Source: an uncultured Slackia sp.
GTDB lineage: Bacteria > Actinomycetota > Coriobacteriia > Coriobacteriales > Eggerthellaceae
NCBI GenBank assembly: GCA_964560045.1
Contig: CAZLKG010000001.1
Coordinates: forward strand, 619-40,202
Direction of reading: 5' to 3'
DNA: 39,584 nt
The notes beneath the pieces were generated by a model. That model ran no database searches. It saw only the letters and a program-made list of their open reading frames with translations, and was not told the origin of the DNA. This document shows positions 1 to 37,003 of the stretch, one piece after another (the first letter of the stretch is position 1; each line of letters starts with the position of its first letter). Made by a program: the position numbers and the translations under genes.

Positions 1-2
1 CC

Positions 3-257
3 GCCGAACCGGTTCCTGAGCCTGCCGAGGTCGATTTCGCTGAGCTTATGGCCGAGCTTTCCGCCGATGACGAAGTGGGGCGCGTGAAAGAGGTCGAATT
101 CACGCCGCTCACCGAGGAAGAAGCCCTGATTCAAATGGATCTTTTGGGGCACGATTTCTTCGTCTACACCGATCGCGACGCCAATGAGGTGCATGTACTG
201 TATCGGCGCACCGGTGGTGGCTACGGCATGCTGAAGCCCAAGAACGATGAGGCATGA
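3..257 (+). CDS. hpf: Ribosome hibernation promoting factor (long HPF), C-terminal part; 5' end outside window
   Basis: Open frame from window edge; RVKEVEFTPLTEEEALIQMDLLGHDFFVY...VLYRRTGGGYGML matches the S30AE/sigma54-modulation C-terminal domain. Confidence 0.9.
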   Translation, partial: AEPVPEPAEVDFAELMAELSADDEVGRVKEVEFTPLTEEEALIQMDLLGHDFFVYTDRDANEVHVLYRRTGGGYGMLKPKNDEA

Positions 258-291
258 CCGCGCCACATCGGCTATAGCAAATCGCTTTATC

Positions 292-323
292 AAAAGAGGA
301 TCCCGAGCCGGGATCCTCTTTTT
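292..323. terminator. Bidirectional intrinsic terminator
   Basis: AAAAGAGGATCCCG-agc-CGGGATCCTCTTTT perfect stem with A/T tracts, between convergent hpf and MFS genes. Confidence 0.85.
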
Positions 324-408
324 GCGACTGTCTCAAGGCAAAGTTCGCGCCGGACTTCAGTCGTGATCTTAAAAGAGGGCTGCGAAGCGATGCTGGAATT
401 TAGTTATG

Positions 409-1749
409 TTAGCCCGCAACCTTCCTGACCTCTTCGGAGTGCGGAATACGCCTGGCAACCGGCAACGCGATGAGATACGCAACCAGACGGATGAGGAGCA
501 AAATGATACCCACCGTAAAGACACCGAAAAACGTGTTGGAGACATCGTACACAAAACCCCAGATTGAAGAACCGACACCGCAAGCAAACGATGAACAGGC
601 CGAAATAATAGACCAAATACGTCCGTAATCCTTATCGCCAAACAGATGTCGCACCGCAAGAGGCAGAATGCTCACATTGCTACATTGAATAGTTCCGTAC
701 AAAAATGCCATTGCGACAATTGCGGTCGAATTCGCACCCCCAACAACCATCAGGCCAATAAATCCGATAATCGGAAAAACGACCGGGCCGATTACCGCAA
801 GCGTAATATTTCTGTCGGCAAATGCGCCGAATACCACTTTGCCTCCCATGTTGCCGAGCGACGCAGCCGAAGTCATTGCAGCCCCCACCATGGTAGCGTA
901 GCCAACATCAAGAGCGTATGAAGTCAGATACTGCGACATCATGACAGCAAGACCCGCTGTCATTGCCATGAGAATCATCAAGTAGAACGAAATCGATTGT
1001 ACAACCCTGGAGAAATCAGCGCCCTCAACCTTGACTATTGAGAACGGCGAATCGGACTTGGCTTCCTTCTCTTCGAAACCATCCAAAGCCGCTCCATACG
1101 ACCTGACACCAACCTCTTCAGGGTAGCTGCGAACGAATGCAATAGAGGAAGGAATGACAAGAATGAGCACCAAGAGCGCAATGACCGCATATCCGATACG
1201 CCATCCGTATGTCGTAATAACAGCTGCAATCGCTATATTGAGAGTGGCAGCACCTATTCCCGAGAGCGCAGCCGCAGCCCCCACCACAAAACCCATGCGC
1301 TCCTTGAACCAGCGCGCGATCATTACGGGAAGCAAATACATGTCAAATGCGCCCATAGCACCCGCCAGCAAGCCCGAAACATACATCACGTATACATTAG
1401 GAGCGAGAGCGTTCAATAAAAACGCCGCGAACAGCAACGCATTGGTTGCCGCATAAATCATGCGCGCGTTTGCGCGCTCCAAAAGTCTGCCACCATACGG
1501 AAGCACGACCATCGTTGAGAAGAATGAGATCGAAACATAAATTCCGACCTGTCCCAAACCAATACCAAACTCATTTGCCACCGGATTGTAGAAGATACCT
1601 GCGCAATTGAACCATGCTCCAATGCATACGAACTCCATCGCTGCACACGCAAACACAAATCCATAATGCCGCCAGGTCATTTTCTGTTTACGACGAACTG
1701 CACCGCCCTCTACATAATCAATGTTTTCCACATCACACCAACCAATCAA
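409..1749 (-). CDS. MFS transporter (OFA/MCT-like); start may be GTG at 1731
   Basis: About 12 hydrophobic segments; motif A-like GGRLLERANAR and second-half GKVVFGAFADR; RWFKERMG, YGWR. Confidence 0.88.
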   Translation of the reverse strand: MIGWCDVENIDYVEGGAVRRKQKMTWRHYGFVFACAAMEFVCIGAWFNCAGIFYNPVANEFGIGLGQVGIYVSISFFSTMVVLPYGGRLLERANARMIYAATNALLFAAFLLNALAPNVYVMYVSGLLAGAMGAFDMYLLPVMIARWFKERMGFVVGAAAALSGIGAATLNIAIAAVITTYGWRIGYAVIALLVLILVIPSSIAFVRSYPEEVGVRSYGAALDGFEEKEAKSDSPFSIVKVEGADFSRVVQSISFYLMILMAMTAGLAVMMSQYLTSYALDVGYATMVGAAMTSAASLGNMGGKVVFGAFADRNITLAVIGPVVFPIIGFIGLMVVGGANSTAIVAMAFLYGTIQCSNVSILPLAVRHLFGDKDYGRIWSIISACSSFACGVGSSIWGFVYDVSNTFFGVFTVGIILLLIRLVAYLIALPVARRIPHSEEVRKVAG

Positions 1750-1907
1750 CTAAACGCTCAAGACGACTACTGCCTGTCCCTCCCGTCCGTGATAAACCCA
1801 CAGACTCCTGAGGAAACTTTCTTTTAGTCGAGCAACCAGACCTAAGCGTGACTACGCTGGCGCATCCCACGCTCCATAAACGCGTTTTCTGCATGCAACA
1901 GAACTCG

Positions 1908-1946
1908 GGTACGGGGCGCAAATCCATCGGATTGGTGCCCCGTACC
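1908..1946. other. Intergenic stem-loop downstream of DASS gene
   Basis: GGTACGGGGC...GCCCCGTACC arms with inner AATCC/GGATT pairing; no strong U-tract. Confidence 0.6.
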
Positions 1947-1965
1947 AAGGCGAATAAGAGGATTT

Positions 1966-3396
1966 TTAGATATACATAACGCCCGTCGCCATCCAGACAG
2001 GACAAGCAATCAAAAAGCCGATGAGAAAGATCACGCAGAACGGAATATTGAAAAACGAAGTCTCGTTGTATTTGATAAAGCCTTCGCCCATTGTACCGAC
2101 GGTGCCAAGAAGCAGAGAGCTCTGATACGGGAACTGGAAGGTGTTAGTGAAGGCATTAAGAATGATTGCGACAATCCAGGGATTGATGCCGGCGGAAATG
2201 GCCAACGGGAACAAAATCGCTGTCGAAACTGCCAGAAAACCGGATTCCGACACGATCAGGAAGCGAACGATGTAAGCAAATACCGCTACTCCTACCGTCA
2301 TCAGAAACGGATTGGAGAAGAAGCCCGCTGTCATCGGACCTGCTATTGATGTAATCCAGTCGGTAACACCAACTTCAGGAAGTACATCACCGATGGAAAT
2401 AGCACATCCGACAAAGACGATGATACCCCATGGAACCTGCTTATTGAAATTCGACATATTGACAATGCCGAAGACAAAAAACAGTGCCATGGCAATACAA
2501 GCAACCGCCCATTCGTTGATACCATGGAAAGACTTCGTCAGCCACAACACAACCGTAAGAATAACGATGATGCCCGCAATTTTCTCATTTTTCGTCCAAC
2601 TCCCAAGCTCGGCAAGACGAGTCGCAACGAAGTCAGCACTGCCCTTCTCATCTTTCTCATCTATGGTTGACCCATCCCCTTTAACGGATCGTCCGTACCA
2701 AAAGATGATGAAAAGCGCACTTAGAATCAAAAATGGAATCATAACCGGCAACGACCAGAGAGCCCATGACATCAATCCATACTGTGCGGCAACGTCTTCG
2801 GGAAGCATGCCTACCAATGCGACGGATACCACAGATGCAGTAATAAACATCGTCGAACATGACTTGAGCGAGGTCCAGTAGGCGAAGAACATTCCGTGTG
2901 CTTTCCTGCCTTCTCCCTGATATCCAGCAGTGTCAGAAATAGCTCGAGCAATTGGCGCGAGAATACCCGTTTTCGCCATAGTGGACGGAACGAACGGGCC
3001 GACGGCAAAAGTCGAAACCATCAACCCAACAACCCGACCTGCAAAGTTTTTCGGAAAGAGCTTCAGCAACATCAGCGCCACGCGCTCCATAAGGCCGCAC
3101 TCTTTCACGGAGATACCAATCATGCAAGCGGGAATAACCAGCCAGATCGTGGTGCCGGAAAACGCCGCGAACGCAACATCAGCACCAACGCCGCCCAAAA
3201 TAACAAAGAGCACGGACATGACAACCGCAGTTACGGCCTCCGGCAGCACGGCACCAATCCAGAAAACAATCGCCCACACGAGCACGCCCAGCACCCGCAT
3301 CGACTCTGTAGTCAGCCCCTCAGGAGCAGGGGTGAACATGATTGCAACGCCAAGGACGATGCCTACAATCGCCCAAACTGTTTTTTTAGTATCCAT
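1966..3396 (-). CDS. SLC13/DASS family anion (di/tricarboxylate) transporter
   Basis: Highly hydrophobic 476 aa; PAPEGLT N-terminus, GLMERVAL, VPSTMAK, LGSWTKNEK, VPWGII patterns typical of DASS. Confidence 0.85.
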   Translation of the reverse strand: MDTKKTVWAIVGIVLGVAIMFTPAPEGLTTESMRVLGVLVWAIVFWIGAVLPEAVTAVVMSVLFVILGGVGADVAFAAFSGTTIWLVIPACMIGISVKECGLMERVALMLLKLFPKNFAGRVVGLMVSTFAVGPFVPSTMAKTGILAPIARAISDTAGYQGEGRKAHGMFFAYWTSLKSCSTMFITASVVSVALVGMLPEDVAAQYGLMSWALWSLPVMIPFLILSALFIIFWYGRSVKGDGSTIDEKDEKGSADFVATRLAELGSWTKNEKIAGIIVILTVVLWLTKSFHGINEWAVACIAMALFFVFGIVNMSNFNKQVPWGIIVFVGCAISIGDVLPEVGVTDWITSIAGPMTAGFFSNPFLMTVGVAVFAYIVRFLIVSESGFLAVSTAILFPLAISAGINPWIVAIILNAFTNTFQFPYQSSLLLGTVGTMGEGFIKYNETSFFNIPFCVIFLIGFLIACPVWMATGVMYI

Positions 3397-3530
3397 TCAT
3401 CACCACCCTCTTACAAAACGCCACGCGAGCGTCCGCATGCAGAAGGAGCCGCCGCCTCTCACTCATACGAGCCGACAGCCCTCCTGCCTTGCATGTATTC
3501 GTACTGAATCGCTTGGACTAACCGTGAAAC

Positions 3531-4295
3531 CTAGCCGTAGTACTCCTGATCAAAGAATTTCATGTCATGCAGCCACAGAATCTTTGCCCCCGTCTGCAAG
3601 ACCTTCACCCGGCTCTGATTCCAGATATCTTGACCGGCGAAATTCGTGTGAATCTTGCCCTTAACATTCTCGTCAACATAGAAGAGATCACCGACGTAGA
3701 TGTAGCGACCATCCTCCGTATCGACAAGAATGGATTGACTACCGAACGTATGCCCCGGGGTAGGAATAAGGTTCAACCCAGGCTCGACTTCGTATTCACC
3801 ATCAACGGGGATCATCTGGCACATGTGTTCTTTCCAGTACGGGAGCTTCGGGTGATCCTGATACGTGTAATCCCATTTTTGTGCCTCGTAAGGAGCCACT
3901 GCGTTATGCATCTCGTCGCGCTGGACATAAATAGGAATATCTTTGGGGAACAGCCACAGATTAGCAGCGTGATCGTGGTGGAGGTGCGTAAGGCAAATCT
4001 GCTTGATGTCTTCTGGCTTGATGCCAACTTTTGCAAGTGCCTCGACAGCATCGGGGCCTTTTTCGACGTTAGTCTTGTATTCCATAAGGTTGTTCTCTTC
4101 GCAGAACTTCCAATGACCGCTTCCGGTGTCAAGCAAGGTGACTTCTCCGGTTTGATTGTTCTTGGCGGCATAAAAACCGTGCGCGAACCAGATTTTCTTA
4201 ACTTCACCTGCGGCGGTATGACCGCCCTTCACTACAAAAGTCTCGGGGATTTCAGAATGACCTAGACGAATGGGATAAATCTTGAACGTGGACAT
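3531..4295 (-). CDS. N-acyl homoserine lactonase-family metallo-beta-lactamase fold hydrolase
   Basis: LDTG, THLHHDH zinc motif, TPGHTFGSQ, GDLFY, terminal HD; ATG at 4295 follows GAGGTGG RBS (alternative GTG at 4304). Confidence 0.88.
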   Translation of the reverse strand: MSTFKIYPIRLGHSEIPETFVVKGGHTAAGEVKKIWFAHGFYAAKNNQTGEVTLLDTGSGHWKFCEENNLMEYKTNVEKGPDAVEALAKVGIKPEDIKQICLTHLHHDHAANLWLFPKDIPIYVQRDEMHNAVAPYEAQKWDYTYQDHPKLPYWKEHMCQMIPVDGEYEVEPGLNLIPTPGHTFGSQSILVDTEDGRYIYVGDLFYVDENVKGKIHTNFAGQDIWNQSRVKVLQTGAKILWLHDMKFFDQEYYG

Positions 4296-4399
4296 ACTTT
4301 CCACCTCTCGCTTTGGTTCCTCGGAACCATTTCACCCTAATCTTGTTCTCGGGAAGTTTCGACAGCGCTTGCCTGAAACACAGCAGCCGCTCTATCGCT

Positions 4400-5650
4400 C
4401 TACCACATCATCGCATCATTGGTGGCGATGGCTCCGTCGTCGTACATCGCCTTAATTTGGTTCTCGTCATAGCCGAGTTCGCCAAGGATCTCTTCGTTGT
4501 CGTATCCGGCGGTCACGCAGCCACGCACGATCTTTCCAGGATGCTTCTTAAATTTCGGTGTGATATTGACACCGCGTACTTTTCCGTCTTCGAAAGGACC
4601 ACCAATGGCATCCCACTCAGTAAAGTTCTCTCGCGCGATGTAGTGCGGATGCTTGACGGCGAGTTCATAGGTCATGATCGGAGAGCAAGCGATGCCCATC
4701 TTGGTAAAGATCTCATCCACTTCCTCCATAGTGTGTTCGACCATCCATTCTTCAATGGCCTTGTTAAGGAGTTCGTAGCCTTCATCCTTGAGCGTAATCC
4801 ACTGCACGCCTTCGGGGAACGTATCCGTTCCATACTCAAACCCAAGAAGCTCTATAAGGCCCCTCATGCCGCTGGTGCCCATCGCGCACAGATACATGCG
4901 TCCGTTCTTGCATTCGAAATTGCCCCAACCGGCATAGTAGCTGCGGTCACCAGGACGTGTTGCGTCCGTAATATCCTGCCCAAGATTGAGATACTCCAAA
5001 GGAAAAGCATTCTGAACGCGCAGCAAAGCCTCATATTGAGCCATATCGATGCTGTCACCCTCTCCGGTCTCGCGCGCCTTATGCAGAGCAGCAAGACACG
5101 CGGCACATCCGAGAATCGGGGGAATCAGATCTCCGGTCCACGGCATGGCGGGCACCGCAGGACGATCGGCATAACCATTAAATGCCATATAGCATCCGAA
5201 TGCCTGACCAATTGAATCGTAAGAGGGACGGCTTACATAGTTGGGATCTCCATACTGACCGAAGCCGGACAGATGGAAGATAACCAGCTTTGGATTAATA
5301 GACCAAAGAAATTCATCGGACAGACCCCACTTCTCATACGTGCCGCCCTTGTTGCTTTCCACGTAGATGTCTGCGGTCTCGACTAACTTCAGTAGAACCT
5401 CTCTACCCTTATCGGTACGAATGTTCAAACTGATGTTGCGCTGATTGCGTCGATTGTCCTGCGGAGATAGATTTCCGCGTGTAAGTTCAGGCACCTTTGG
5501 ATTTTCGATCCAGATTACATCTGCGCCCCAGTCGGCCATAAGCGAAGTCGCGAACGGCCCTGCAATCGATGAACCGGCATTGATGACACGGACACCGGCC
5601 AGAGGGCCAAACGGCGTTTTATCCTTGGAAATATTCTTTCTAAGCTCCAT
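4400..5650 (-). CDS. Family III CoA transferase, CaiB/BaiF-like
   Basis: PFGPLAGVRV, SIAGPFA, WGADVIWIE, RRNQRNISLN, SGFGQYG, catalytic Asp region WTGD; very CaiB-like; GAAGGGG RBS before ATG at 5650. Confidence 0.9.
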   Translation of the reverse strand: MELRKNISKDKTPFGPLAGVRVINAGSSIAGPFATSLMADWGADVIWIENPKVPELTRGNLSPQDNRRNQRNISLNIRTDKGREVLLKLVETADIYVESNKGGTYEKWGLSDEFLWSINPKLVIFHLSGFGQYGDPNYVSRPSYDSIGQAFGCYMAFNGYADRPAVPAMPWTGDLIPPILGCAACLAALHKARETGEGDSIDMAQYEALLRVQNAFPLEYLNLGQDITDATRPGDRSYYAGWGNFECKNGRMYLCAMGTSGMRGLIELLGFEYGTDTFPEGVQWITLKDEGYELLNKAIEEWMVEHTMEEVDEIFTKMGIACSPIMTYELAVKHPHYIARENFTEWDAIGGPFEDGKVRGVNITPKFKKHPGKIVRGCVTAGYDNEEILGELGYDENQIKAMYDDGAIATNDAMMW

Positions 5651-5775
5651 GCTGTTCCCCTTCGGTTTAAACCTCATTCAGAAAGGCGCCGGGTCATCTT
5701 GCAAGAGGCAGTATCTGATACCCCGGCGCCCAGTTTCAAATCAGAATCAACCACCTTCCCTGCAAAAGAGCGATC

Positions 5776-6954
5776 CTAGACCTCACTCACAAAGCTGCCG
5801 TCAAGGGTGCTGCGTCCGATAACCATACGCTGTACCTCTGAAGACCCCTCGAAGATCGTGTACACGCGTGCGTCGCGATAGAGTTGTTCACACTTATTGC
5901 CGCGAATTACGCCGCGACCGCCCATGATCTGCGTTGCGTCGTATACAACCTGGTTGGCCGCCTCAGATGCGAACAGCTTTGCAATGGAGACCTCAGCAGA
6001 TTTCTGCTTACGAGATACACTTCCGGGATTGCTCTCGAGGATCGCAGCCCGATAGCACAGAAGTTTTGCCGCCTGGTATTTCGCAACCATATCCGCGAGC
6101 TTAAACTGGATGGACTGGATATTGCCGAGCTTCGATCCGAAAACAATACGCTCATTGCACCAGGTCTTGCATTCCTCGATGGCACGCCACATAACGCCAA
6201 GGCTCTGAGCCGCAACCTGTATACGCCCTCCGTCTAGCGCACCGAGAGCAATGCCGTATCCCTTATTGACCTCTCCGAGGACAGCATCGTCACTCACGCG
6301 GCAATCAACCAACTCAAACTCGCCGGTACGCTGGCCAAGAATACCCATCTTCTTATAGGTGATACCGGGACGGAAACCGGGATTATCGGTATCGACAATG
6401 AAACCCGTAATGCCCTTGCCGCCCTTTTCAGGGTCGGTCTTTGCAAATACGAAGTAGAAATCAGAATGGCCGAAATTACCCACCAGCGTTTTCTTGCCAT
6501 TTAAAACCCATTCGTCTCCATCGCGAACTGCAGTCATCTGAATTGCTGCCGCATCGGTGCCCGCCATTTTTTCAGTGATCGCGAAACCGGGAGCCTTTTC
6601 GCCTGAAGCAACCAAGGGCAGATACTTCTTTTTCTGCTCCTCGGTTCCGGCAAGCATCAGTGGACCGGTTCCGAGAAGATAGATCTGCAGAACTACAGCG
6701 CACGAGGGACATGCCTTGGCGATCTCTTCTGTTACAATCGCCATCTCCGTCATGCTCCAGCCTTTTCCGCCGTATTCTTCGGGGATGCCGATTCCTGTGA
6801 GTCCAAAATCCTTCATTGCCTGGAGCTGCTTTTCGGGATAACAACCCGTTTCAGCAACCTGGTCAGCCAATGGCTCAATTTCCTTCGCAACGAATTCGCG
6901 AATGGACTCCCTGAGTTTGCTGTAATGCTCCTGATCCTGCAAACAAAAATCCAT
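5776..6954 (-). CDS. Acyl-CoA dehydrogenase (short-chain/butyryl-CoA type)
   Basis: IPEEYGG, FAITE..AGTD, LNGKK, KMGI, LDGGRI, QIMGGRG, YRDARVYTIFEGSSEVQ with C-terminal catalytic Glu. Confidence 0.92.
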   Translation of the reverse strand: MDFCLQDQEHYSKLRESIREFVAKEIEPLADQVAETGCYPEKQLQAMKDFGLTGIGIPEEYGGKGWSMTEMAIVTEEIAKACPSCAVVLQIYLLGTGPLMLAGTEEQKKKYLPLVASGEKAPGFAITEKMAGTDAAAIQMTAVRDGDEWVLNGKKTLVGNFGHSDFYFVFAKTDPEKGGKGITGFIVDTDNPGFRPGITYKKMGILGQRTGEFELVDCRVSDDAVLGEVNKGYGIALGALDGGRIQVAAQSLGVMWRAIEECKTWCNERIVFGSKLGNIQSIQFKLADMVAKYQAAKLLCYRAAILESNPGSVSRKQKSAEVSIAKLFASEAANQVVYDATQIMGGRGVIRGNKCEQLYRDARVYTIFEGSSEVQRMVIGRSTLDGSFVSEV

Positions 6955-7039
6955 GGCTTTCCTTCCTCTAAAGCGCGCAGTTTGCGCACCCCAACAGATT
7001 TCGACCGGATTCAGATGCGGTGGGCTAATTCCGGCCATC

Positions 7040-7210
7040 TCAAACTCTACTCAGGTTTTTATATTTGTAAATAAACAAGATTTATGTTATGTATATATAA
7101 ATTGCTTTTTATTATTTTATAGATTTATCTTATAGCGAATATTTCAATTTTTATTATACGTTTTTCAGTAATTGTTAATTTTTTTTAAAAGAATCACTGG
7201 TTATTCTATG
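7040..7210. promoter_or_regulatory. Very AT-rich divergent promoter region
   Basis: Almost entirely A/T, between two divergently transcribed ACAD genes; contains TTGT-N6-ACAA at 7065-7078. Confidence 0.6.
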
Positions 7211-7251
7211 AACGCGGTGGGATGCAAGGATCCTCAGAAAAGGAGGCGGCT

Positions 7252-8382
7252 ATGAGCATGAATTTTTCCCTCACGGACGAGCAAGAACTACTGCTCGAAA
7301 GCCTGAGTGAACTTATGAGTTCTTTCCCAGATTCCTATTGGCGCAGTTGCGATGAAGAACGACGGCTTCCTACCGAATGGTGGGATGCAATGGTTGATGC
7401 GGGATTCGCATTCCTTGGAATACCCGAAGAGTATGGCGGAACACCTGTGGACGCCGTTACGCACATGATGTTCATAGAGGAAGTTGGCCGCCTCGGTGGT
7501 CCATCTTACCTGATGCACAATTTTTTGCGAATACGCGATATGATTTCCTTCGGTACCCCTGAACAGATGCAATACACACTCGATGCCGCTAAGCACAGTC
7601 CTGTGTCGTTTGCTCTCGGCGCTTCCGAGCCGCAGGCTGGATCATACTCCAAAGGCATTACGGCACGTGCGGAGCATCGAAATGGAAAGGTTTACATCAC
7701 CGGAAATAAAACATTCATCTCACATGCTCTTGCGGTAGAGAAGATGCTCACCGTTACAATAGATGATGAGGGGAAGATGTCCATGTGGCTGGTGCCTCTC
7801 AAGGCTGCAGGTGTAAAGATGAGCGACCTGCATAAAGTAGGGTTAAAGAGTTCCAGCACCTGCGAAGTCTATCTCGATAATGTCGAGATAGAAGAAAGCG
7901 ACCTTGTGGGCAAAGAGGGCGAAGGTCTCTACCAACTCATGGAAAATTATTCCTACGAACGCATTTCCATCGCGGCTCAGGCAACGGGAATGGCTCGCTG
8001 TGCATACGAAGATGCCATGTCATACGCCAATCAGCGCGAACAGTTCGAACAGCCCATTGCGTCATTCCAGCTCATTCAACAAAAGGCGTTAGAAATGTAT
8101 CTGAAGATTCAGAATATGCAGAATCTTCTCTACAAAGCCGCATGGCAGCTCGACCAAGGTATTGATGATCGTATCCTTCCCAATGCAGCGAAATATTACT
8201 GCACGCGATCGTCTTTCGAGGTAATTGATGATGCGATGCAAATCATGGGCGGTATCGGATATACGGACGACTGCCGCATATCTCGACTGTGGCGTGATGC
8301 GCGCTCAATGCGCTTCACCGGCGGAACCGACGAGATCATGGTGCATGTCGCGGGGCGCGGTGTGTTGAAACAGTTTAAATAG
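7252..8382 (+). CDS. Acyl-CoA dehydrogenase/enoyl-CoA reductase, CaiA-like
   Basis: MNFSLTDEQELL, IPEEYGG, SEPQAGS, NYSYERI, QIMGGIGYTDDCRISRLWRD, FTGGTDEIM; AGGAGG RBS before ATG at 7252. Confidence 0.9.
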   Translation: MSMNFSLTDEQELLLESLSELMSSFPDSYWRSCDEERRLPTEWWDAMVDAGFAFLGIPEEYGGTPVDAVTHMMFIEEVGRLGGPSYLMHNFLRIRDMISFGTPEQMQYTLDAAKHSPVSFALGASEPQAGSYSKGITARAEHRNGKVYITGNKTFISHALAVEKMLTVTIDDEGKMSMWLVPLKAAGVKMSDLHKVGLKSSSTCEVYLDNVEIEESDLVGKEGEGLYQLMENYSYERISIAAQATGMARCAYEDAMSYANQREQFEQPIASFQLIQQKALEMYLKIQNMQNLLYKAAWQLDQGIDDRILPNAAKYYCTRSSFEVIDDAMQIMGGIGYTDDCRISRLWRDARSMRFTGGTDEIMVHVAGRGVLKQFK

Positions 8383-8409
8383 CGAGTAACTTGAACGACC
8401 TACCGGTAA

Positions 8410-8438
8410 AGAGAAAGGCTGCGTTGCGGTCTTTCTCT
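8410..8438 (+). terminator. Probable terminator after CaiA-like gene
   Basis: AGAGAAAGGCTGC-gtt-GCGGTCTTTCTCT stem (two G-U pairs) between convergent genes. Confidence 0.55.
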
Positions 8439-8514
8439 CAACGTTTTCTATCCGCCCGCCAACCCTAGACTAGAACCGATAAGGGTACGACTTACGAATA
8501 CCATAAGCGCTACG

Positions 8515-9243
8515 TCATAAGAGGGAGCGACCTGTCTCTCGGGAGGTAGGTGGGATTCTATCCCCGAAATGCCTTATGGACTTTTCCATCTGGTAAGTCT
8601 CTACGATATGCCGCATCCCCTCATGCGCCAGATTATTAACCGGATGGATATGACGTACGTTACTATTCTCGACAAAGCCCATAAAGGCGTTGATCATTCC
8701 TCGCACTACTCCCGTAGCATAGAATGCGGCAGTGTAGCGCTTCGCCTCCTCAGGCATTTTCCTTCCATTCAGGAAGTAGTCCATATCCTCATAAAACAAG
8801 CCTTGGAACAGTTCCTCTAGATACCGGCAAAACGCAACGCTAAACTCAGAGCGCAATATGGCTCGGTAATAATTCTCGTATTTGAGAAACGTGTCGTAGA
8901 AATCACGAAAATATTGTGATTGATCAAGAGACAATGCGTGCACCGAGATCCTTCCGTAGCATGGAAGTCCTTCAAAATTGTAAATATCGCTCGCCGATTC
9001 AACTAAATCAGAAATATCCCAATGACGTAAAAGGCTATCCAGCAGATCTTTCCTGAATCCCCATGCCACCAATTCATCCTGATTGGCAAAATGATTATAA
9101 AATGTCTTACGCGTCATGCCGGCCGCTTCGATAATCGCAGAAACGGTAATCTTGGTCTGACCGTTGCTGACAAACCGCCTAAAAACGTCATATATAGCGT
9201 TTTTGGCGATATTCCTGTTTCTTCGTGCCATATCGTGCTCCAC
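8515..9243 (-). CDS. TetR/AcrR family transcriptional regulator (start 9243 GTG or 9231 ATG)
   Basis: N-terminal HTH KITVSAIIEAAGMTRKTFYNHF...DELVAW. Confidence 0.88.
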   Translation of the reverse strand: MEHDMARRNRNIAKNAIYDVFRRFVSNGQTKITVSAIIEAAGMTRKTFYNHFANQDELVAWGFRKDLLDSLLRHWDISDLVESASDIYNFEGLPCYGRISVHALSLDQSQYFRDFYDTFLKYENYYRAILRSEFSVAFCRYLEELFQGLFYEDMDYFLNGRKMPEEAKRYTAAFYATGVVRGMINAFMGFVENSNVRHIHPVNNLAHEGMRHIVETYQMEKSIRHFGDRIPPTSRETGRSLL

Positions 9244-9329
9244 TATTATGATGCCATCCGCGTAAAAATATTACCATAATTGCCAATTTGTTGATAATCT
9301 TCACGCAGGGTTACCAGATGGGAGAAGTA

Positions 9330-10526
9330 ATGGATTTTTCGATCTCGCGAGAGCAAGAAGATCTTCTATCCAAACTTGACACATTCTGTCAAAAACACCT
9401 TTCGGAAGAGATAGTCAATCGATGGATTGCCGAGGGGAGAGTTCCCGATTCATTCACTCGGAAATATCTTGAAGAAGGCTTTGGGCGCATAGGGCTCCCA
9501 AAACGCCTTGGGGGCATTCCTGCTCCTGTCATCACCAAGGCTCTCATCCTCGAACGATTGGCGCTCAGAGCCGGAGCTACGCTCCCCGCTCAGGGCCTCA
9601 TGACTGACATGCACTTCATATCGAAAGCCGCCAGCGAAGACCAAGCTACTCTTTTACAAAAAACCATTGAGAATACGGGCAGACTTCCTTTCTCTCTGGC
9701 AGTTTCCGAACCACAATCCGGATCAGAGACATTCGACGTACGCACCACCGCATCAGAGAGTGAATCTGGCTTTGTCATAAACGGGACCAAATCCTTTGTG
9801 AATTCGGGGCAATTTGCGCCCTACATTGCCCTTATCGCCTACGACGTTGACATGGATACGCCGCCCCATAACGACAAAGCCCCCCTGACTTTCTTTCTGG
9901 TATCACGTGACGCGGAGGGAGTAGATACCTTCCCTATGGCAAAAATAGGCCAAAAGCTCATCCCGACAGCCGACATAGTTTTCGACAACGTCCAAGTCGA
10001 AAAAAGCGCCGTAATCGGCATCAGAGGACACGGAGCAGAAATGCTCCTTAGCAGTTTCGAGTATGGCAGGATATACGTGTGCGCAACAACAGTTGGACTC
10101 GCACAGTCTGCACTTGAACAGGCAGTAATGTATGCACTTGATAGGAAGATATCCAATTCCTCCATCCTCGCATTCCAGCAAATTCAGGAAATGATTACCG
10201 ATGCCCAAGCGAAGATCGATGCAATGCGCAGCCTGCTCTATAAAACCGCATGCGGCATTGATGAGCAATCAAAATACTCACGACTCGATACAGCTATCCT
10301 CAAGCGATTTATCCCGAAAACTGCTATGGAGGTGGCAGATAGTGCTATGCAAATCATGGGAGGCATGGGATACCAATCGACTACCAAGGCTGCCCGCATC
10401 TGGGAAGAATGCCGCGGAAACCGCATCATTCAAGGTACCGATGAGATCATGACGATAGTAGCTGCAAAACGCATCGCCCAACGACTCGTAGACGAACAAG
10501 TTAATCCTCCCATCTGGCGTTTCTAG
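9330..10526 (+). CDS. Acyl-CoA dehydrogenase family protein, atypical active site
   Basis: MDFSISREQ, LAVSEPQSGS, INGTKSF, KIGQ, QIMGGMGY, RIIQGTDEIM; GGAG RBS before ATG at 9330. Confidence 0.88.
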   Translation: MDFSISREQEDLLSKLDTFCQKHLSEEIVNRWIAEGRVPDSFTRKYLEEGFGRIGLPKRLGGIPAPVITKALILERLALRAGATLPAQGLMTDMHFISKAASEDQATLLQKTIENTGRLPFSLAVSEPQSGSETFDVRTTASESESGFVINGTKSFVNSGQFAPYIALIAYDVDMDTPPHNDKAPLTFFLVSRDAEGVDTFPMAKIGQKLIPTADIVFDNVQVEKSAVIGIRGHGAEMLLSSFEYGRIYVCATTVGLAQSALEQAVMYALDRKISNSSILAFQQIQEMITDAQAKIDAMRSLLYKTACGIDEQSKYSRLDTAILKRFIPKTAMEVADSAMQIMGGMGYQSTTKAARIWEECRGNRIIQGTDEIMTIVAAKRIAQRLVDEQVNPPIWRF

Positions 10527-10576
10527 GTGAAGAACCCGACTGCGAACCGAGAAGATGGGCAGGGCGATTTATTTTT

Positions 10577-12295
10577 TCATTTCGCCCGATTTGAAAGTCG
10601 CTCTCTAAGTTCAGCATCACTATGGAATGCCTGACCCGATTCCTCATAGAGCTGCGCCAGGGCGTGCTTGTTCAGCTTTCCGTTCGCAAGGTGCGGCATA
10701 TGGTCAAGAACGATTACCTGATCTGGTATCTCATACTTGGCAAGCCTGCCCTTCGCGTAGTCCCTCAACTGCACGTCACTTACACATTCTTTTGCCTCTA
10801 CAAATAAGACAATCTGCTCTCCTAGCTCTTCATGGGGAAAACCCATCGCACAGCAGTCCGCAACCAACTGGATCCTGCCATATATCTTCTCTATCTCAGC
10901 GGGATAGACTTTGTATCCTCCCCTGTTGATTACATCGCCTACCCTACCGATGATATGCACGTACCCGTCTGAGTCCACATAGCCCAAATCGTCCATATGA
11001 ACCCATCCCTCCCGATCTATACGTTCGGCAGTAGCAACAGGATTGTCCAGATAGCCAATCATGGCGCCGGGATTCTTGCAGACAATCTCGCCGGACTCCC
11101 CCGGATTCACCTCCTTACCCACACTGTCAACGACCTTTGCCTGAACCAGTTCGTTAAATCTTCCTACCCCCGTAATCGCAACATCTAGTGAATCACCCTC
11201 GGTCGTGAATGCAACAATCGGGCACTCCGTGCTTCCGTATATCACCCGCAGAGAGCAATGAAGAATTCGCTCATACTCCTCCAGGTTGCTGCATTTTGCC
11301 CCAGCAATGGTTCCGGTGCGCATACTCGCCAGATCTCGGGAACATCGCTCCTGTTCATGTGCAATACGCTTATACATGGATGGGACGCCATTGACAACGG
11401 TAACGCGATGCCTTTCCATAAGGTCAAGCATCATGCTCGCCCTAAATTTCGGCATGATGACCGACGTTGCCCCAAGTTTCATAGGCAACAGAAACCCCGT
11501 GTTAATACCGTAGATGTGGCTAACGGGCAGCGATGTGATAAACACATCGTCTTGCAAAGCACGAAGAGCACACTGAATGGAACCTATGGCGTGCTCCAAC
11601 CCCCCTTTTGATAAAAGAACTCCTTTTGGGTTCCCTGTTGTCCCCGAAGTAAATATGGTAAGGATGGGCAGATGACCTCCGAATGAGCAATCTCGATCCA
11701 GTAATCCAAGGGGCGTTGGGGCAAATGGTATCTTTTCGTCATCGAGAAAACCCTCTAACGGCTCGATATGCTCAGGCACATCCCCTAGCCCCTGCGCTTT
11801 TCCTGAGGTGCCCACCTCGCTAAGGCTTGCATTTTCTGCGCCGCGCACCTTCATTGCAGAATACCCAAGCGCTTCACACTCATGCATATGCTCAGGTTTG
11901 GCCACAAAAACCATCACGGGCTTCGCTAGTTCCAAACGAATCCCGAGCTCTTCTGTGGTCGTAAGAATATCAAGAGGAATCAGATTGATACCTTCCTTCA
12001 TAGCAGCAAAAAGCAGAATCGCAAACTCAATCCCGCCAGGCATCACTGCGACGACATTTTTCCCTTTAGAAATTCCGTACTTCCCAAAGGTCTTTCGCGC
12101 CGAGTGTATCCTTTCGCAAAGACCCGCATAACTTATGCTTCCATTCGCATCAATGATCGCCGTTTTTTCCGGCAGTTGGTTGGCCCAGAAATCAATCACA
12201 TCGCCTAAAGATACTTGATCAACAAGAGGACGCTTCCACTCTTCTAAATTGGTGTTATCAATCGAAACTCCACCCAACTCCCAGAAGTCGGTCAC
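10577..12295 (-). CDS. Class I adenylate-forming enzyme, acyl-CoA ligase-like
   Basis: FTSGTTGNPKG P-loop, LPVSHIYG, YGSTE, GEI..K, GR..DVINRGG.KVYPAEIE, NGKL; start GTG at 12295 is approximate. Confidence 0.9.
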   Translation of the reverse strand: MTDFWELGGVSIDNTNLEEWKRPLVDQVSLGDVIDFWANQLPEKTAIIDANGSISYAGLCERIHSARKTFGKYGISKGKNVVAVMPGGIEFAILLFAAMKEGINLIPLDILTTTEELGIRLELAKPVMVFVAKPEHMHECEALGYSAMKVRGAENASLSEVGTSGKAQGLGDVPEHIEPLEGFLDDEKIPFAPTPLGLLDRDCSFGGHLPILTIFTSGTTGNPKGVLLSKGGLEHAIGSIQCALRALQDDVFITSLPVSHIYGINTGFLLPMKLGATSVIMPKFRASMMLDLMERHRVTVVNGVPSMYKRIAHEQERCSRDLASMRTGTIAGAKCSNLEEYERILHCSLRVIYGSTECPIVAFTTEGDSLDVAITGVGRFNELVQAKVVDSVGKEVNPGESGEIVCKNPGAMIGYLDNPVATAERIDREGWVHMDDLGYVDSDGYVHIIGRVGDVINRGGYKVYPAEIEKIYGRIQLVADCCAMGFPHEELGEQIVLFVEAKECVSDVQLRDYAKGRLAKYEIPDQVIVLDHMPHLANGKLNKHALAQLYEESGQAFHSDAELRERLSNRAK

Positions 12296-12309
12296 AATAC
12301 ACCCCCATT

Positions 12310-12450
12310 TCCCCTTATAATATATATACATACTTAGAATATTGTATAGAAATATTCTATCCTGTATATTTATTATGATATTGTATTGAAAATTTTTTCA
12401 CTAATAAATAGTCACTATTTATAATTCGTATATTTTACTGCTTTGACAAA
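12310..12450 (-). promoter_or_regulatory. AT-rich promoter/operator region of acyl-CoA ligase
   Basis: AT-rich block with three inverted repeats at 12335-12359, 12387-12400 and 12404-12422. Confidence 0.6.
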
Positions 12451-12548
12451 ATTGGTAGCCACTGAAGGATGATCAGTCATCGTACAGTCAAATCCCCACA
12501 GTCGGACAAAACAGAAATAATACGACGTCCTCACGGCTCACACCACTA

Positions 12549-14069
12549 TCAGCCCGCCTCCAAGATCTGAATCAGCTCTTCTTTCGATGAGACACCGGCT
12601 TTTCGATACATATTGCGCATGTGTGTCCTCACGGTGTTTTCTGATATAAACAGCTTCTCGGCAATGTAGGGCGATCCGTGGCCCGCTGCCAGATATTCGA
12701 GCACTTCCCGCTCGCGCGCCGTGAACGCATATCGTTCAGCAAGATATGCGCACGCTGCAACCGACCCTACGTTGCGCCCGGATCTTTCCCTTTCGGCCAT
12801 CCGTTCGATGAGATGCCGCGAACGTATGAGCGCAGCAAGCACCACGTAGACGAAATACGCAGAGGCTACCAGCAAAAGTGACGGCCCGATGGCATCTGCT
12901 CCCGCGAGTACATACAAGCGTTGACCAAAAAGGGAGCAAAGCGCTGCACCCACATACAGACATACGTGGAGAACCCATGGGGATATTTCCCCCTTCCCTG
13001 ACACCGCCGCCAGTGACGCAAACGCCATAAGCGCAATAAACGCCATAAGGACATGGGAAAGGAAAAATGCCACTCCAAACGTAGCCGACTCGACCGAAAA
13101 CTGTGAGAGGAAGAAAAACACGGCGGCAAGAGCCGGGATGTACAGATTCACAACAGCCGAAACTTCCAGCCTTTTTCGCAGGGCAAGCAATGCGGCAGCA
13201 CACAGCGCCCCACCCATAAACGAAAGCATCTCAATGCGCTCAAACAAGCTGGGCATGAAGCCCGTGTTATATGCCTCGAAGCGAGCACTTGATACGAACA
13301 CGAGCAAGAATAGGCCTATGCAAAGGTCAAGGGTTGTAGTGAGGGAATAACCGATTGATACCTCGAAGGCTTCGGATTTATCAACCACCCCCTCCTCCGC
13401 AGCTCCCAATAACGAATTCTGCGACACCTCCCGGGTGGACACAAGATCACCGCGCACAGCTTCAACGAGCGGAAAGACAAGCCCGCAGCAAAGCATGACA
13501 ATAAACGAGGGTACACTGATCTCAAACAGCCCCACTGCAAAAAGAAAATTGAACAAACCACCCAACCCGAGCGCACACGCGACACAGGCAAGCGCAACCC
13601 TGAACGAAAGGCGAGCAAAAAGAAATCCCCAGGCAACAGCGGGAAAAAGCATGCTGGCACCGCACAGCGCTCCCAAAACTGCACCGCCCACTCCTTTGTC
13701 ATCTGATCCTGCAAAAACGCAGATGGCGCATGCAACCACATAGCAGGCCGATCCCGCAATCACAGCCAGTCTTGACATAAAAAACGCGCCGCGACGACCG
13801 GAAAGAAAGCGCACCGTCAGAAGAATTCCTGCCACAGCTACCCCTAAAACAAACGGCGCAAGCGAAACGGAGAGTCCTTTTGCCGCAGCACTAAAAAGCG
13901 AGAGTTGGGGTGGAAGGATAGGCAGCGTCATGAAAAACGCTCCGAAAAGCACATACGGTACAAAGGCGCACGCGCCCTTGCTGACGTGGGTGACACATTC
14001 TTCTTGCCGATCGTTGCCCCGCTGAATCGTGTGAAAAATCCGTACGATGTCTCTTCCTATTCCTCCCAT
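12549..14069 (-). CDS. Multi-transmembrane LuxR-family transcriptional regulator
   Basis: About 12 hydrophobic segments then C-terminal LuxR HTH FTAREREVL..LA.G.....IAEKLFISENTVRTHMRNMYRK; ATG at 14069 has AGAGGGG RBS, start uncertain. Confidence 0.88.
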   Translation of the reverse strand: MGGIGRDIVRIFHTIQRGNDRQEECVTHVSKGACAFVPYVLFGAFFMTLPILPPQLSLFSAAAKGLSVSLAPFVLGVAVAGILLTVRFLSGRRGAFFMSRLAVIAGSACYVVACAICVFAGSDDKGVGGAVLGALCGASMLFPAVAWGFLFARLSFRVALACVACALGLGGLFNFLFAVGLFEISVPSFIVMLCCGLVFPLVEAVRGDLVSTREVSQNSLLGAAEEGVVDKSEAFEVSIGYSLTTTLDLCIGLFLLVFVSSARFEAYNTGFMPSLFERIEMLSFMGGALCAAALLALRKRLEVSAVVNLYIPALAAVFFFLSQFSVESATFGVAFFLSHVLMAFIALMAFASLAAVSGKGEISPWVLHVCLYVGAALCSLFGQRLYVLAGADAIGPSLLLVASAYFVYVVLAALIRSRHLIERMAERERSGRNVGSVAACAYLAERYAFTAREREVLEYLAAGHGSPYIAEKLFISENTVRTHMRNMYRKAGVSSKEELIQILEAG

Positions 14070-14329
14070 GATTCCCCTCTGCGCCGACGTGGCAGAAAAC
14101 ACATGCAAATCCATTCGCCCAGGTAAACAGTACCAGGTCAAATTCAGATAACCGAAACGTTGACGCAGATAGCGCATCACGGGGATGGGCAAACACATCA
14201 CTCTGTCGTACGGTTCGGGCGCGCCGGAAGATCAAAACGAAGACGCTCATCTCCGTTCAAACATTTCCGCTCAGGGTCAATGGCGGGTTCTTTCTGCGCA
14301 GGAAGAAGCATACGGCATAAGGAGGAAAA

Positions 14330-16099: not shown

Positions 16100-16209
16100 A
16101 CGACGGGCGAAACGGGCTTGTAGCGACCGACCAGAGCCGACTGGACAAGAGGACTGGCACTCCCGCGCGGCTTCCACGTCTTTCCCTTTAGTCCATCTGA
16201 CATCTCGAC

Positions 16210-16245
16210 GCCACCGCACCCTCCCCTCCTGGTGCGGTGGCCTTT
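16210..16245 (+). terminator. Probable terminator after flavoprotein gene
   Basis: GCCACCGCACC-10nt-GGTGCGGTGGC stem followed by CTTT. Confidence 0.6.
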
Positions 16246-16266
16246 AAGCTCGACATTGTTTCCCTT

Positions 16267-16303
16267 CTCAGCGCCCGAGCTTCCTCCCTCAGCGCCCGGG
16301 CTT
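16267..16303. repeat. Short imperfect direct repeat
   Basis: CTCAGCGCCCGAGCTT and CTCAGCGCCCGGGCTT, 21-bp period. Confidence 0.6.
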
Positions 16304-20281: not shown

Positions 20282-20860
20282 GGGCGCACCATCCTTTCTC
20301 CTGATCATATGGACGATGGGCACAGCGATGCGCTACCAGCGCAAACGCACTGGTAGCAAAACGCCGCATCGCCGCATACCGAGCTTGAAAGATGCCAAAG
20401 CGCAGGTCTTCAAGGCGGAACGGGAGAACGCGACAGGAGGGTGCTCTTGCAGCAACCGTTCCGCGGAGCCGACAGAATCGAAAGAGCGTCGGACGCGGCA
20501 GGGGATCCCACATGCAGAAACATGCGGGAGGGATTGCGGATTTCGGACCAAATACCGAGGTCATGATAGCGTTAGGGCAGAGACACAGGATGGCATCATC
20601 GGGAAGCTGTAGCCAAACCGTTACCTGACTTTAAGACATTATCCAAAAATCTTCGTTTTGTTAAGGCAGAACCGGCGCAAAATTAACACAAATCGCAATA
20701 TATGTGCAATGCGCCATCTTCTACCAGGGAGCAGAAAGAACATCGTCGAGGTCTTGAATGCCTCCAGTCAACCGCCTTGGTTTTTGCAAAACGAATATCT
20801 GAGCAAACCGAAAACGCAGGCATTCGGAGACAAAACTTCGCATTCCTGTTCTCAAGGAAG

Positions 20861-25298: not shown

Positions 25299-25312
25299 AT
25301 TTTCACCTCATC

Positions 25313-36990: not shown

Positions 36991-37003
36991 TGAGTACACC
37001 CCC

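What the first reader, a model, noticed from the sequence alone, without database searches (positions are those of the whole stretch)
409..12450. Self-contained CoA-dependent catabolic locus: metallo-lactonase, CaiB, three ACADs, ligase, DASS, MFS and TetR
Seen: a co-oriented run ACAD > CaiB-like > AiiA-type lactonase > DASS > MFS, with a divergent CaiA-like ACAD, TetR, a third ACAD and an acyl-CoA ligase. Known: the E. coli carnitine system caiTABCDE/fixABCX uses a BCCT transporter, the crotonase CaiD and ETF, none of which is here. Inference: the substrate is probably not carnitine but a lactone/ester or carboxylate that is imported, ring-opened, CoA-activated, reduced or eliminated, and exported. 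Diet-derived lactones or lactone-acids are speculative candidates. I do not recognise this gene combination as a described pathway.
Basis: partly seen in the sequence, partly recalled or inferred. Interest (0 to 1): 0.8.

Follow-up and report, generated by a model that had tools for sequence, protein, structure and literature searches.

The report
Lactonase island with catalytically dead dehydrogenase
A nine-gene insertion in what is likely a gut bacterium joins a lactone-opening-type enzyme to a coenzyme A loop that likely reduces the opened acid, and it carries a dehydrogenase lacking its catalytic glutamate that stays paired with a regulator gene and may act as its sensor.

Summary
The nine genes are real, intact and form one unit. 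The block is low in GC (0.496 against 0.548), and a same-genus genome lacks exactly this block between hpf and the LuxR gene. Homologues of five genes (ACAD1, CaiB, lactonase, TetR, ACAD3) recur together on other metagenome contigs, judged by shared contig lengths.

It is not the carnitine pathway: CaiA, CaiB and CaiD cut-offs are missed and no BCCT was found. It is not self-contained either: ETF is encoded elsewhere. CaiB/ACAD/ligase/transporter cassettes are common in this family; the AiiA-type lactonase is the rare addition.

Most likely mechanism: lactone hydrolysis, CoA loading (ligase primes, CaiB recycles), enoyl-CoA reduction by ACAD1/ACAD2, then export. The substrate is unknown.

This holds for a nine-member subclade, and the gene sits 98 bp divergent from a DhaS-like TetR (same contig in 16 of 24 homologues). 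ACAD3 is probably non-catalytic: a regulator co-sensor like DhaQ, or a heterotetramer subunit. Verdict: new variant of a known kind.

The parts
409..1731 (-). MFS transporter, likely exporter (440 aa by the database gene call)
   Evidence: Pfam MFS_1 116 bits; start; role inferred
1966..3396 (-). DASS-family carboxylate transporter, likely importer or antiporter (476 aa)
   Evidence: Na_sulph_symp 155 bits; TIGR00785 160, below cut-off 198.6; its best homologues (45%) sit in CaiB-ACAD-DASS-ligase-ETF cassettes
3531..4295 (-). AiiA/4-pyridoxolactonase-like dimetal hydrolase (254 aa), predicted lactonase
   Evidence: H107-x-H109-x-D111-H112, H185, D206, Y209, H246 (numbering from 4304) conserved in 14 homologues, Y209 nearly invariant, aligned to AiiA; model pLDDT 92.7, TM 0.79 to 3aj3/4keq
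4400..5650 (-). CaiB-subfamily (family III) CoA-transferase (416 aa)
   Evidence: CoA_transf_3 269 bits; PRK03525 402.7, cut-off 413; best PDB match E. coli CaiB
5776..6954 (-). ACAD1, Bcd/AcrC/CarC-type acyl-CoA dehydrogenase or enoyl-CoA reductase (392 aa); catalytic Glu369 present
   Evidence: best NCBIfam acryloyl-CoA reductase 361 of 640; PDB 5ol2 and 6fah CarC among top hits for a C-terminally clipped query; FEG motif
7252..8382 (+). ACAD2, YdiO-like acyl-CoA dehydrogenase (376 aa); catalytic Glu236 at the LCAD/IVD-type site
   Evidence: PRK12341 510 of 537, CaiA 357 of 540
8515..9231 (-). DhaS-like TetR regulator (238 aa)
   Evidence: TetR_N + TetR_C_8; profile best hits 2iu5 DhaS and 4mk6; fold Z 15.4 (4mk6; rmsd 3.9, 184 aligned) and 13.2 (2iu5; rmsd 4.7, 172 aligned), next 11.9
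9232..9329 (.). 98-bp divergent spacer between TetR and ACAD3
   Evidence: 100 bp in G184; sigma70-like sites present but consensus scans are near chance level
9330..10526 (+). ACAD3, intact acyl-CoA dehydrogenase-fold protein (398 aa) with no catalytic Glu: Gly246 at the LCAD site, Gln368 (CAA, 10431-10433) at the MCAD site; likely non-catalytic
   Evidence: Gln or Leu in 9 of 25 clade members, one subclade with SH-aLRT 99
10577..12331 (-). AMP-forming acyl-CoA ligase (584 aa), likely priming enzyme
   Evidence: AMP-binding 207 bits; adenylation motifs present; none of the 25 NCBIfam families shown reaches its cut-off

Best explanation
This is a nine-gene accessory island that likely lets the cell open a lactone and use the freed unsaturated acid as an electron acceptor through a coenzyme A loop, with ACAD3 likely serving a non-catalytic role beside the TetR. 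Inferred steps: DASS imports a lactone-acid or its ring-opened form; the dimetal lactonase hydrolyses the ring; the ligase primes the cycle with ATP; CaiB moves CoA from the finished product to the next acid; ACAD1 (and ACAD2, perhaps for a second substrate or isomer) reduces the alpha,beta-unsaturated thioester with electrons from an ETF encoded elsewhere; the MFS exports the saturated hydroxy acid. Because the block has no hydratase or dehydratase, I favour a substrate that is already an enoate once opened (coumarin-, butenolide- or alpha-methylene-lactone type). Shown: gene content, island boundaries, active-site residues, co-occurrence. Inferred: chemistry, direction, substrate, transport roles and the role of ACAD3.
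For: Unit status. Co-conservation by identical longest-contig length: one 468,929-bp contig carries homologues of ACAD1 (91%), CaiB (87%), lactonase (77%), ACAD3 (67%) and TetR (61%); other contigs link lactonase+ACAD3 (3), lactonase+TetR (1), lactonase+ACAD1 (1), CaiB+ACAD1 (1), ACAD1+TetR+ACAD3 (1). The closest lactonase homologue with readable context (L055, 55%, a Bacillota MAG) keeps ACAD>CoA-transferase>lactonase in the same order; 20 of 158 lactonase-homologue loci carry a CaiB-family gene, enriched among the closest hits. Lactonase residues and fold. ACAD1's nearest families are reductases of anaerobes. Eggerthellaceae respire dietary enoates (bioRxiv 10.1101/2022.12.26.521950, abstract and passages); gut microbes reduce alpha,beta-unsaturated lactones, with Gram-positive enzymes unidentified (PMC13200227, abstract and passages). 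ACAD3 on lactonase- or ACAD1-linked contigs carries Glu in some (P0187, P0192, P0175) and Gln in others (window, P0170), so the locus does not depend on that residue.
Against: No activity data; nothing fixes the substrate or direction. YdiO-type ACADs with ETF/FixC are also used oxidatively (recalled). The known gut route for coumarin reduces first and the lactone then opens spontaneously, needing neither lactonase nor CoA (PMC13200227). DASS suggests a di- or tricarboxylate rather than a neutral lactone. The CoA-transferase next to the L055 lactonase is only 24% identical and of another subfamily, so that order may be convergent. 138 of 158 lactonase-homologue loci show no CaiB gene, though many are short or distant. 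No GTDB relative holds the whole block: the lactonase has no homologue above 31% in 60 relatives and only 15 of 338 family genomes have a distant one. Co-occurrence of DASS, MFS, ACAD2 and the ligase with the rest was not shown (single-member clusters). Contig-length matching is indirect and shows neither order nor adjacency on long contigs. FixC was not found in this 77%-complete genome.
Confidence: 0.45

Rival explanations
1. Same parts, oxidative direction: a saturated lactone is opened and CoA-activated, and ACAD1/ACAD2 oxidise it to feed electrons through ETF into respiration, with hydratases from other loci finishing the job.
For: Three crotonases and a 2-hydroxyacyl-CoA dehydratase locus exist elsewhere in the genome; related family cassettes include ETF and FixC; ACAD2 is YdiO-like; Bacillota loci with this lactonase clade include MaoC, crotonase and ETF.
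Against: No hydratase, hydroxyacyl-CoA dehydrogenase or thiolase in an otherwise discrete island; a CoA-transferase plus exporter fits a recycle-and-excrete loop; FixC not found here.
Confidence: 0.2
2. For ACAD3: it is the non-catalytic subunit of an alpha2beta2 dehydrogenase with ACAD2 (or ACAD1), as in actinobacterial ChsE-type enzymes, and the TetR link is just the family's usual divergent regulator arrangement.
For: Other Glu-less ACAD3-type genes lie in clusters with an ACAD2-type gene (own C37, G220 L396, G220 L277, G221 L395). Most FAD-contact motifs are kept. 26 of 28 wider TetR homologues have an ACAD within 1.5 kb, and 24 of those 26 are Glu-bearing YdiO-type.
Against: ACAD2 and ACAD3 are not co-transcribed here (TetR lies between them on the other strand). 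G184 has the TetR-ACAD3 pair with no other ACAD or CaiB on its 25-kb contig and only one other ACAD in an 87%-complete genome. ACAD3 diverges at the regulator's rate, not the enzymes'.
Confidence: 0.3
3. For ACAD3: it is an enzyme whose mechanism needs no base, such as a decarboxylating malonyl-CoA-type dehydrogenase or an eliminating lyase, which would fit a dicarboxylate brought in by DASS.
For: IaaF and sulfinopropionyl-CoA desulfinase lack the Glu and are active (PMC8360864, Discussion passages); DASS in the block; all nine Glu-less members are full length.
Against: The site is Glu in 16, Gln in 7 and Leu in 2 of 25 close homologues, not one fixed replacement as in IaaF's GGG.
Confidence: 0.15
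4. The block is a patchwork: an ordinary family CoA cassette plus a quorum-quenching (acyl-homoserine lactone) lactonase whose neighbours act on something else.
For: Best sequence hits in the PDB are AiiA; G220/G221 have a similar cassette (TetR, ACAD2 47%, DASS 30%, CaiB 47%, ligase, Glu-less ACAD, ETF) whose metallo-hydrolase is not an orthologue.
Against: The lactonase is embedded mid-operon and travels with ACAD1, CaiB, ACAD3 and TetR; AiiA score is 81 against a cut-off of 375; its clade sits in catabolic operons in Bacillota too.
Confidence: 0.12
5. Carnitine/crotonobetaine reduction with missing parts supplied from elsewhere.
For: CaiB scores 402.7, just under the 413 cut-off; ETF and crotonases exist elsewhere.
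Against: CaiA 357 of 540; best CaiD score among the two full-length crotonases 184.6 of 500; no BCCT found in the genome (77% complete); no role for a lactonase or DASS.
Confidence: 0.04

Closest known systems
E. coli caiTABCDE/fixABCX (carnitine reduction)
   Same: CaiB-subfamily CoA-transferase, ATP-dependent ligase, LCAD-type ACAD, import and export functions
   Different: No BCCT, CaiD or Fix in the block; CaiA, CaiB and CaiD cut-offs missed; adds a lactonase, DASS, a Bcd-type ACAD and a Glu-less ACAD
Acetobacterium woodii caffeate respiration, CarABCDE (organisation recalled, not read here)
   Same: Ligase primes, CoA-transferase recycles, ACAD reduces an enoyl-CoA, no dehydratase needed; CarC (6fah) is among ACAD1's top PDB hits
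   Different: Family III instead of family I transferase (recalled); ETF not in the locus; extra lactonase and two more ACAD-fold proteins
E. coli ydi cluster (YdiO, YdiQRST, FadK; organisation recalled)
   Same: ACAD2 and ACAD3 are nearest to YdiO; MFS and ligase present
   Different: ETF absent from the block; CaiB-type transferase; lactonase
AiiA / 4-pyridoxolactonase family of dimetal lactonases
   Same: All metal ligands, bridging Asp and Tyr; TM 0.73-0.79
   Different: 20-26% identity; far below every named-family cut-off; sits in a CoA-dependent operon
Lactococcus lactis DhaS-DhaQ (TetR activator with a ligand-binding co-activator)
   Same: DhaS and its Listeria homologue are the top sequence-profile and fold matches of the TetR; a catalytically deficient enzyme homologue is its constant neighbour. 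DhaS-DhaQ complex: passage in PMC7590123; DhaQ as a kinase paralogue is recalled
   Different: The partner is an ACAD fold, not a Dha kinase fold; 14-16% identity; TIGR02366 score 51 of 129; no binding shown
alpha2beta2 acyl-CoA dehydrogenases (ChsE/FadE pairs; search listing only; details recalled)
   Same: One ACAD lacks the catalytic Glu and a catalytically intact ACAD is nearby
   Different: The genes are not adjacent in one operon; the pair with TetR occurs without a neighbouring ACAD in G184

Membership tests
cai carnitine pathway | CaiT (BCCT) transporter | tested here: not met
   None in the block; none found in the 77%-complete genome
cai carnitine pathway | CaiA crotonobetainyl-CoA dehydrogenase above family cut-off | tested here: not met
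   ACAD2 357 of 540
cai carnitine pathway | CaiB L-carnitine CoA-transferase above family cut-off | tested here: inconclusive
   402.7 against 413; many 40-47% paralogues across the family
cai carnitine pathway | CaiD crotonase | tested here: not met
   None in the block; best elsewhere 184.6 of 500, two of three crotonases scanned
AiiA-type metallo-lactonase superfamily | HxHxDH plus His, bridging Asp, Tyr and C-terminal His | tested here: met
AiiA-type metallo-lactonase superfamily | Lactonase-type MBL fold | tested here: met
   TM 0.79 to 4-pyridoxolactonase, 0.73-0.75 to AiiA
AiiA proper (AHL lactonase equivalog) | NF045699 cut-off 375 | tested here: not met
   81.5 bits
AiiA-type metallo-lactonase superfamily | Hydrolysis of a lactone | not testable with these tools
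   needs an assay
Car-type CoA-loop enoate respiration | Ligase + CoA-transferase + reductase-type ACAD without dehydratase | tested here: met
Car-type CoA-loop enoate respiration | Cognate ETF in the same locus | tested here: not met
   two ETF pairs on contigs C79 and C35 only
Car-type CoA-loop enoate respiration | Reductive direction in vivo | not testable with these tools
   inferred
Canonical acyl-CoA dehydrogenase (ACAD3) | Catalytic Glu at the MCAD or LCAD site | tested here: not met
   Gln368 and Gly246
DhaS-DhaQ-like regulator/pseudoenzyme pair | DhaS-subfamily TetR | tested here: inconclusive
   top fold and profile matches are DhaS-type, but TIGR02366 51 of 129 and helical Z values near 13 can be generic
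DhaS-DhaQ-like regulator/pseudoenzyme pair | Conserved linkage to a catalytically deficient enzyme paralogue | tested here: inconclusive
   linkage in 16 of 24, but 16 of 25 clade members keep the Glu
DhaS-DhaQ-like regulator/pseudoenzyme pair | Physical complex and ligand-dependent activation | not tested
alpha2beta2 heterotetrameric ACAD | Two ACAD genes adjacent in one operon | tested here: not met
   TetR on the opposite strand separates ACAD2 and ACAD3; no partner near in G184
alpha2beta2 heterotetrameric ACAD | Obligate co-assembly | not testable with these tools
   needs co-expression

The most novel reading that the evidence does not exclude
ACAD3 is a pseudo-dehydrogenase that binds the pathway's acyl-CoA intermediate (or reports FAD redox state) and acts as co-activator of the divergent DhaS-like TetR, switching on an undescribed lactone-respiration island: a DhaQ-DhaS logic rebuilt on the acyl-CoA dehydrogenase fold in gut bacteria.
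Probability: 0.25. Interest if true: 0.8.

Novelty: new variant of a known kind. Interest (0 to 1): 0.52.

Why it matters
Gut bacteria of this type transform many plant compounds, and the Gram-positive enzymes acting on unsaturated dietary lactones are stated to be unidentified (PMC13200227). A bounded, co-conserved island with a lactonase upstream of a CoA loop is a compact, testable candidate for such a route. The TetR/Glu-less ACAD pair offers a direct test of whether DhaS-like regulators generally recruit dead copies of their pathway's enzyme as sensors. If the pair is only a heterotetramer subunit with an ordinary regulator, the locus is one more uncharacterised cassette of a kind that is common in this family.

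Tried and rejected
Complex prediction for TetR + ACAD3 was not available: no verdict on binding. The protein atlas gave no answer.

Rfam: 0 matches in the window. The promoter scan was near chance (19 found against 14.5 +/- 3.1); terminator-like sites were 25 against 15.7 +/- 3.9 but mostly inside genes. The repeat search of 6900-12600 gave no convincing operator.

Sequencing runs: one DNA run listed, no RNA holder listed. Laid on 1-16300, it gave short, near-identical, low-depth pieces in six genes from a bird metagenome: one study, no joins. This is only a habitat hint.

The TetR/ACAD3 distance correlation (Mantel r 0.64, 2 of 5000 permutations, 16 pairs) is set aside because shared descent explains it. 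The first ACAD tree did not finish its careful search; both trees are quick trees.

The metallo-hydrolases in G220 and G184 were first taken as counterparts of the lactonase but are not orthologues. The itaconate/methylsuccinate cluster (PMC12290011, passages), bbu (PMC8364193, three passages), thn (PMC11659651, passages) and the E. lenta model paper (PMC10234575, two passages) showed no description of this combination in the passages seen.

Ten literature searches listed no paper on this locus or on an ACAD pseudoenzyme partnering a TetR. The library is open-access only, and I read no supplements, which could hold induction data for related genes. Earlier scan findings: nothing.
Full report
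Observation. The nine genes are present as described. On the minus strand run ACAD1 (5776-6954), a CaiB-type CoA-transferase (4400-5650), a metallo-hydrolase (3531-4295), DASS (1966-3396) and MFS (409-1731), with gaps of 104-234 bp. Then come ACAD2 (+, 7252-8382), TetR (-, 8515-9231), ACAD3 (+, 9330-10526) and a ligase (-, 10577-12331). The genome is a 1.63-Mb, 224-contig, 77%-complete assembly with dozens of transmembrane-LuxR and flavin-reductase paralogues. I infer Eggerthellaceae from that content; no tool named the taxon.

It is a discrete island. GC is 0.496 over 409-12331 against 0.548 over the rest of the window; 2 of 63 ten-kb bins are as low. Of 27 other same-genus genomes, 24 have the ABC gene to the right of the block, and 13 of those 24 have hpf, the gene to its left, within 1.5 kb. 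G009 has ABC, flavoprotein (76%), LuxR, then hpf about 100 bp later, so exactly these nine genes are extra here and the LuxR/flavoprotein pair is a separate module.

Is it conserved? Not as a whole in GTDB relatives: the lactonase has no homologue above 31% in 60 relatives, and only 15 of 338 family genomes have a distant one. In metagenome proteins it is. I could not read those contigs, so I matched the reported longest-contig lengths. One 468,929-bp contig holds homologues of ACAD1 (91%), CaiB (87%), lactonase (77%), ACAD3 (67%) and TetR (61%). Three more link lactonase with ACAD3; single contigs link lactonase with TetR, lactonase with ACAD1, CaiB with ACAD1, and ACAD1 with TetR and ACAD3. 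As a control, 0 of 12 outgroup ACAD lengths matched, and the 25,196 match is the pair seen directly in G184. DASS, MFS, ACAD2 and ligase gave single-member clusters, so their linkage is untested. Further out, L055 keeps ACAD>CoA-transferase>lactonase, and 20 of 158 lactonase-homologue loci include a CaiB-family gene, 16 a ligase and 11 an ACAD. Several of these are Bacillota operons with GntP-like transporters, ETF and hydratases.

The backbone is common. 58 of 339 family genomes have a CaiB at E<=1e-95, 179 have an ACAD at E<=1e-65 to ACAD3, and this genome has seven other CaiB/ACAD/ligase loci. G220 and G221 carry the nearest analogue: TetR, ACAD2 (47%), DASS (30%), the best-scoring CaiB (47%), a sodium:solute symporter, ligase, a Glu-less ACAD and ETF, with (checked in G220) a metallo-hydrolase that is not an orthologue of the lactonase. 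It is not carnitine metabolism: CaiA 357/540, CaiB 402.7/413, CaiD at best 184.6/500 elsewhere, and no BCCT found. Nor is it self-contained: two ETF pairs and three crotonases lie on other contigs.

The enzymes. The hydrolase keeps HxHxDH, His185, Asp206, Tyr209 and His246 across 14 homologues, matching AiiA. Its model (pLDDT 92.7) is closest to 4-pyridoxolactonase (TM 0.79) and AiiA, but it is below every named cut-off. ACAD1 has the MCAD-type Glu and is nearest to acryloyl-, butyryl- and caffeyl-CoA reductases. ACAD2 has the LCAD-type Glu and is YdiO-like.

What was missed: ACAD3. It has Gly at the LCAD site and Gln at the MCAD site. It belongs to a sharply bounded clade of 25 proteins (50-67% identity, next hit 38%). 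In that clade the MCAD site is Glu in 16, Gln in 7 and Leu in 2, and the LCAD site is never Glu. The nine Glu-less proteins form one subclade (SH-aLRT 99, quick tree), all full length, so this is one old loss and neither an assembly error nor repeated decay. Most FAD-contact motifs remain, and the clade has invariant terminal residues, including Trp396 in a C-terminal extension. Glu-to-Gln inactivates LCAD (PMC11153573, abstract start in listing).

The TetR clade is equally bounded (24 homologues, 44-61%). 16 of 24 ACAD3 homologues share a contig length with a TetR homologue, or 16 of 20 whose contig is long enough; some of these contigs are only 3.5-4.5 kb. The spacer is 98 bp here and 100 bp in G184, where no other ACAD or CaiB lies on the contig and the 87%-complete genome has one other ACAD. 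The TetR's best profile and fold matches are DhaS and its Listeria homologue. DhaS works with a ligand-binding co-activator, DhaQ (PMC7590123, one passage); that DhaQ is a dead kinase paralogue is recalled.

Against the co-sensor reading: most clade members keep the Glu; TetRs of the wider family routinely lie next to an ACAD (26 of 28 loci, 24 of them Glu-bearing YdiO-type); other Glu-less ACADs sit in clusters with an ACAD2-type gene; and Glu-less ACADs can be real enzymes (PMC8360864, Discussion passages). Binding could not be modelled. I put ACAD3 at about 0.3 heterotetramer subunit, 0.25 regulator co-sensor, 0.15 base-free enzyme, and the rest other.

Mechanism. I commit to import, lactone hydrolysis, ATP-primed and transferase-recycled CoA loading, enoyl-CoA reduction with an ETF from elsewhere, and export (0.45). 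With no hydratase in a discrete island, the simplest substrate is a lactone that yields an enoate directly. Eggerthellaceae respire dietary enoates (bioRxiv 10.1101/2022.12.26.521950, abstract and passages), and Gram-positive coumarin reductases are unidentified. However, the known coumarin route needs neither lactonase nor CoA (PMC13200227, abstract and passages), and DASS points to a lactone-acid. The substrate is open.

Novelty. Ten searches of an open-access library listed no paper on this combination; no supplements were read. It works like Car/Cai/Ydi CoA loops but is a member of none. New variant of a known kind; interest 0.52.

Noticed in passing
window 12549-16099: Transmembrane-LuxR and divergent flavin reductase with host-like GC. 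The hpf-ABC interval holds different LuxR/flavin-reductase modules in G009, G019 and G024, so it looks like an insertion hotspot.
   Followed up: partly
window 24486-25669: Encapsulin (Linocin_M18) with an upstream encapsulated-ferritin-like gene.
   Followed up: no
window 19163-20323: KamA-family radical SAM protein below the cut-offs for lysine, glutamate and arginine 2,3-aminomutases, upstream of an amino-acid ABC transporter.
   Followed up: no
window 35304-39584: Molybdopterin oxidoreductase, 4Fe-4S subunit and cytochrome b subunit; the large subunit runs off the contig end.
   Followed up: no
L214 (G000 C37) and L396 (G220): Conserved operon: 2-hydroxyacyl-CoA dehydratase subunit, MFS, YdiO-type ACAD, BadF activator, ligase and a second Glu-less (Gln) ACAD.
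   Followed up: partly
P0022: 388-aa database protein with the N-terminal half of a family III CoA-transferase fused to a close lactonase homologue; a real fusion or an assembly chimera.
   Followed up: no
L056, L058, L059: Lachnospiraceae/Blautia loci with two tandem lactonase homologues near a ligase, a biotin-carrier gene and MFS; aldehyde:ferredoxin oxidoreductase seen in L056 and L059.
   Followed up: no
L142, L143, L136, L150: Metagenome operons pairing this lactonase clade with GntP-like transporters and CaiB; L142 and L143 add ACADs, MaoC and crotonase, L142 also ETF.
   Followed up: partly
L217:3956-4741 (G000 C100): A crotonase 90-93% identical across several family genomes, including another genus, unusually conserved among these cassettes.
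   Followed up: no
L321:5514-8813 (G184): ETF genes followed by a Nudix-like protein (motif recalled; no Pfam hit at 1e-5) and a metallo-beta-lactamase-fold protein, about 2.5 kb from the TetR-ACAD3 pair.
   Followed up: no
window 12334-12391 and 7072-7099: AT-rich 19-nt direct repeat upstream of the ligase, and a 28-nt 75% inverted match between the ligase and ACAD1/ACAD2 promoter regions; possible operators, not tested against chance.
   Followed up: no
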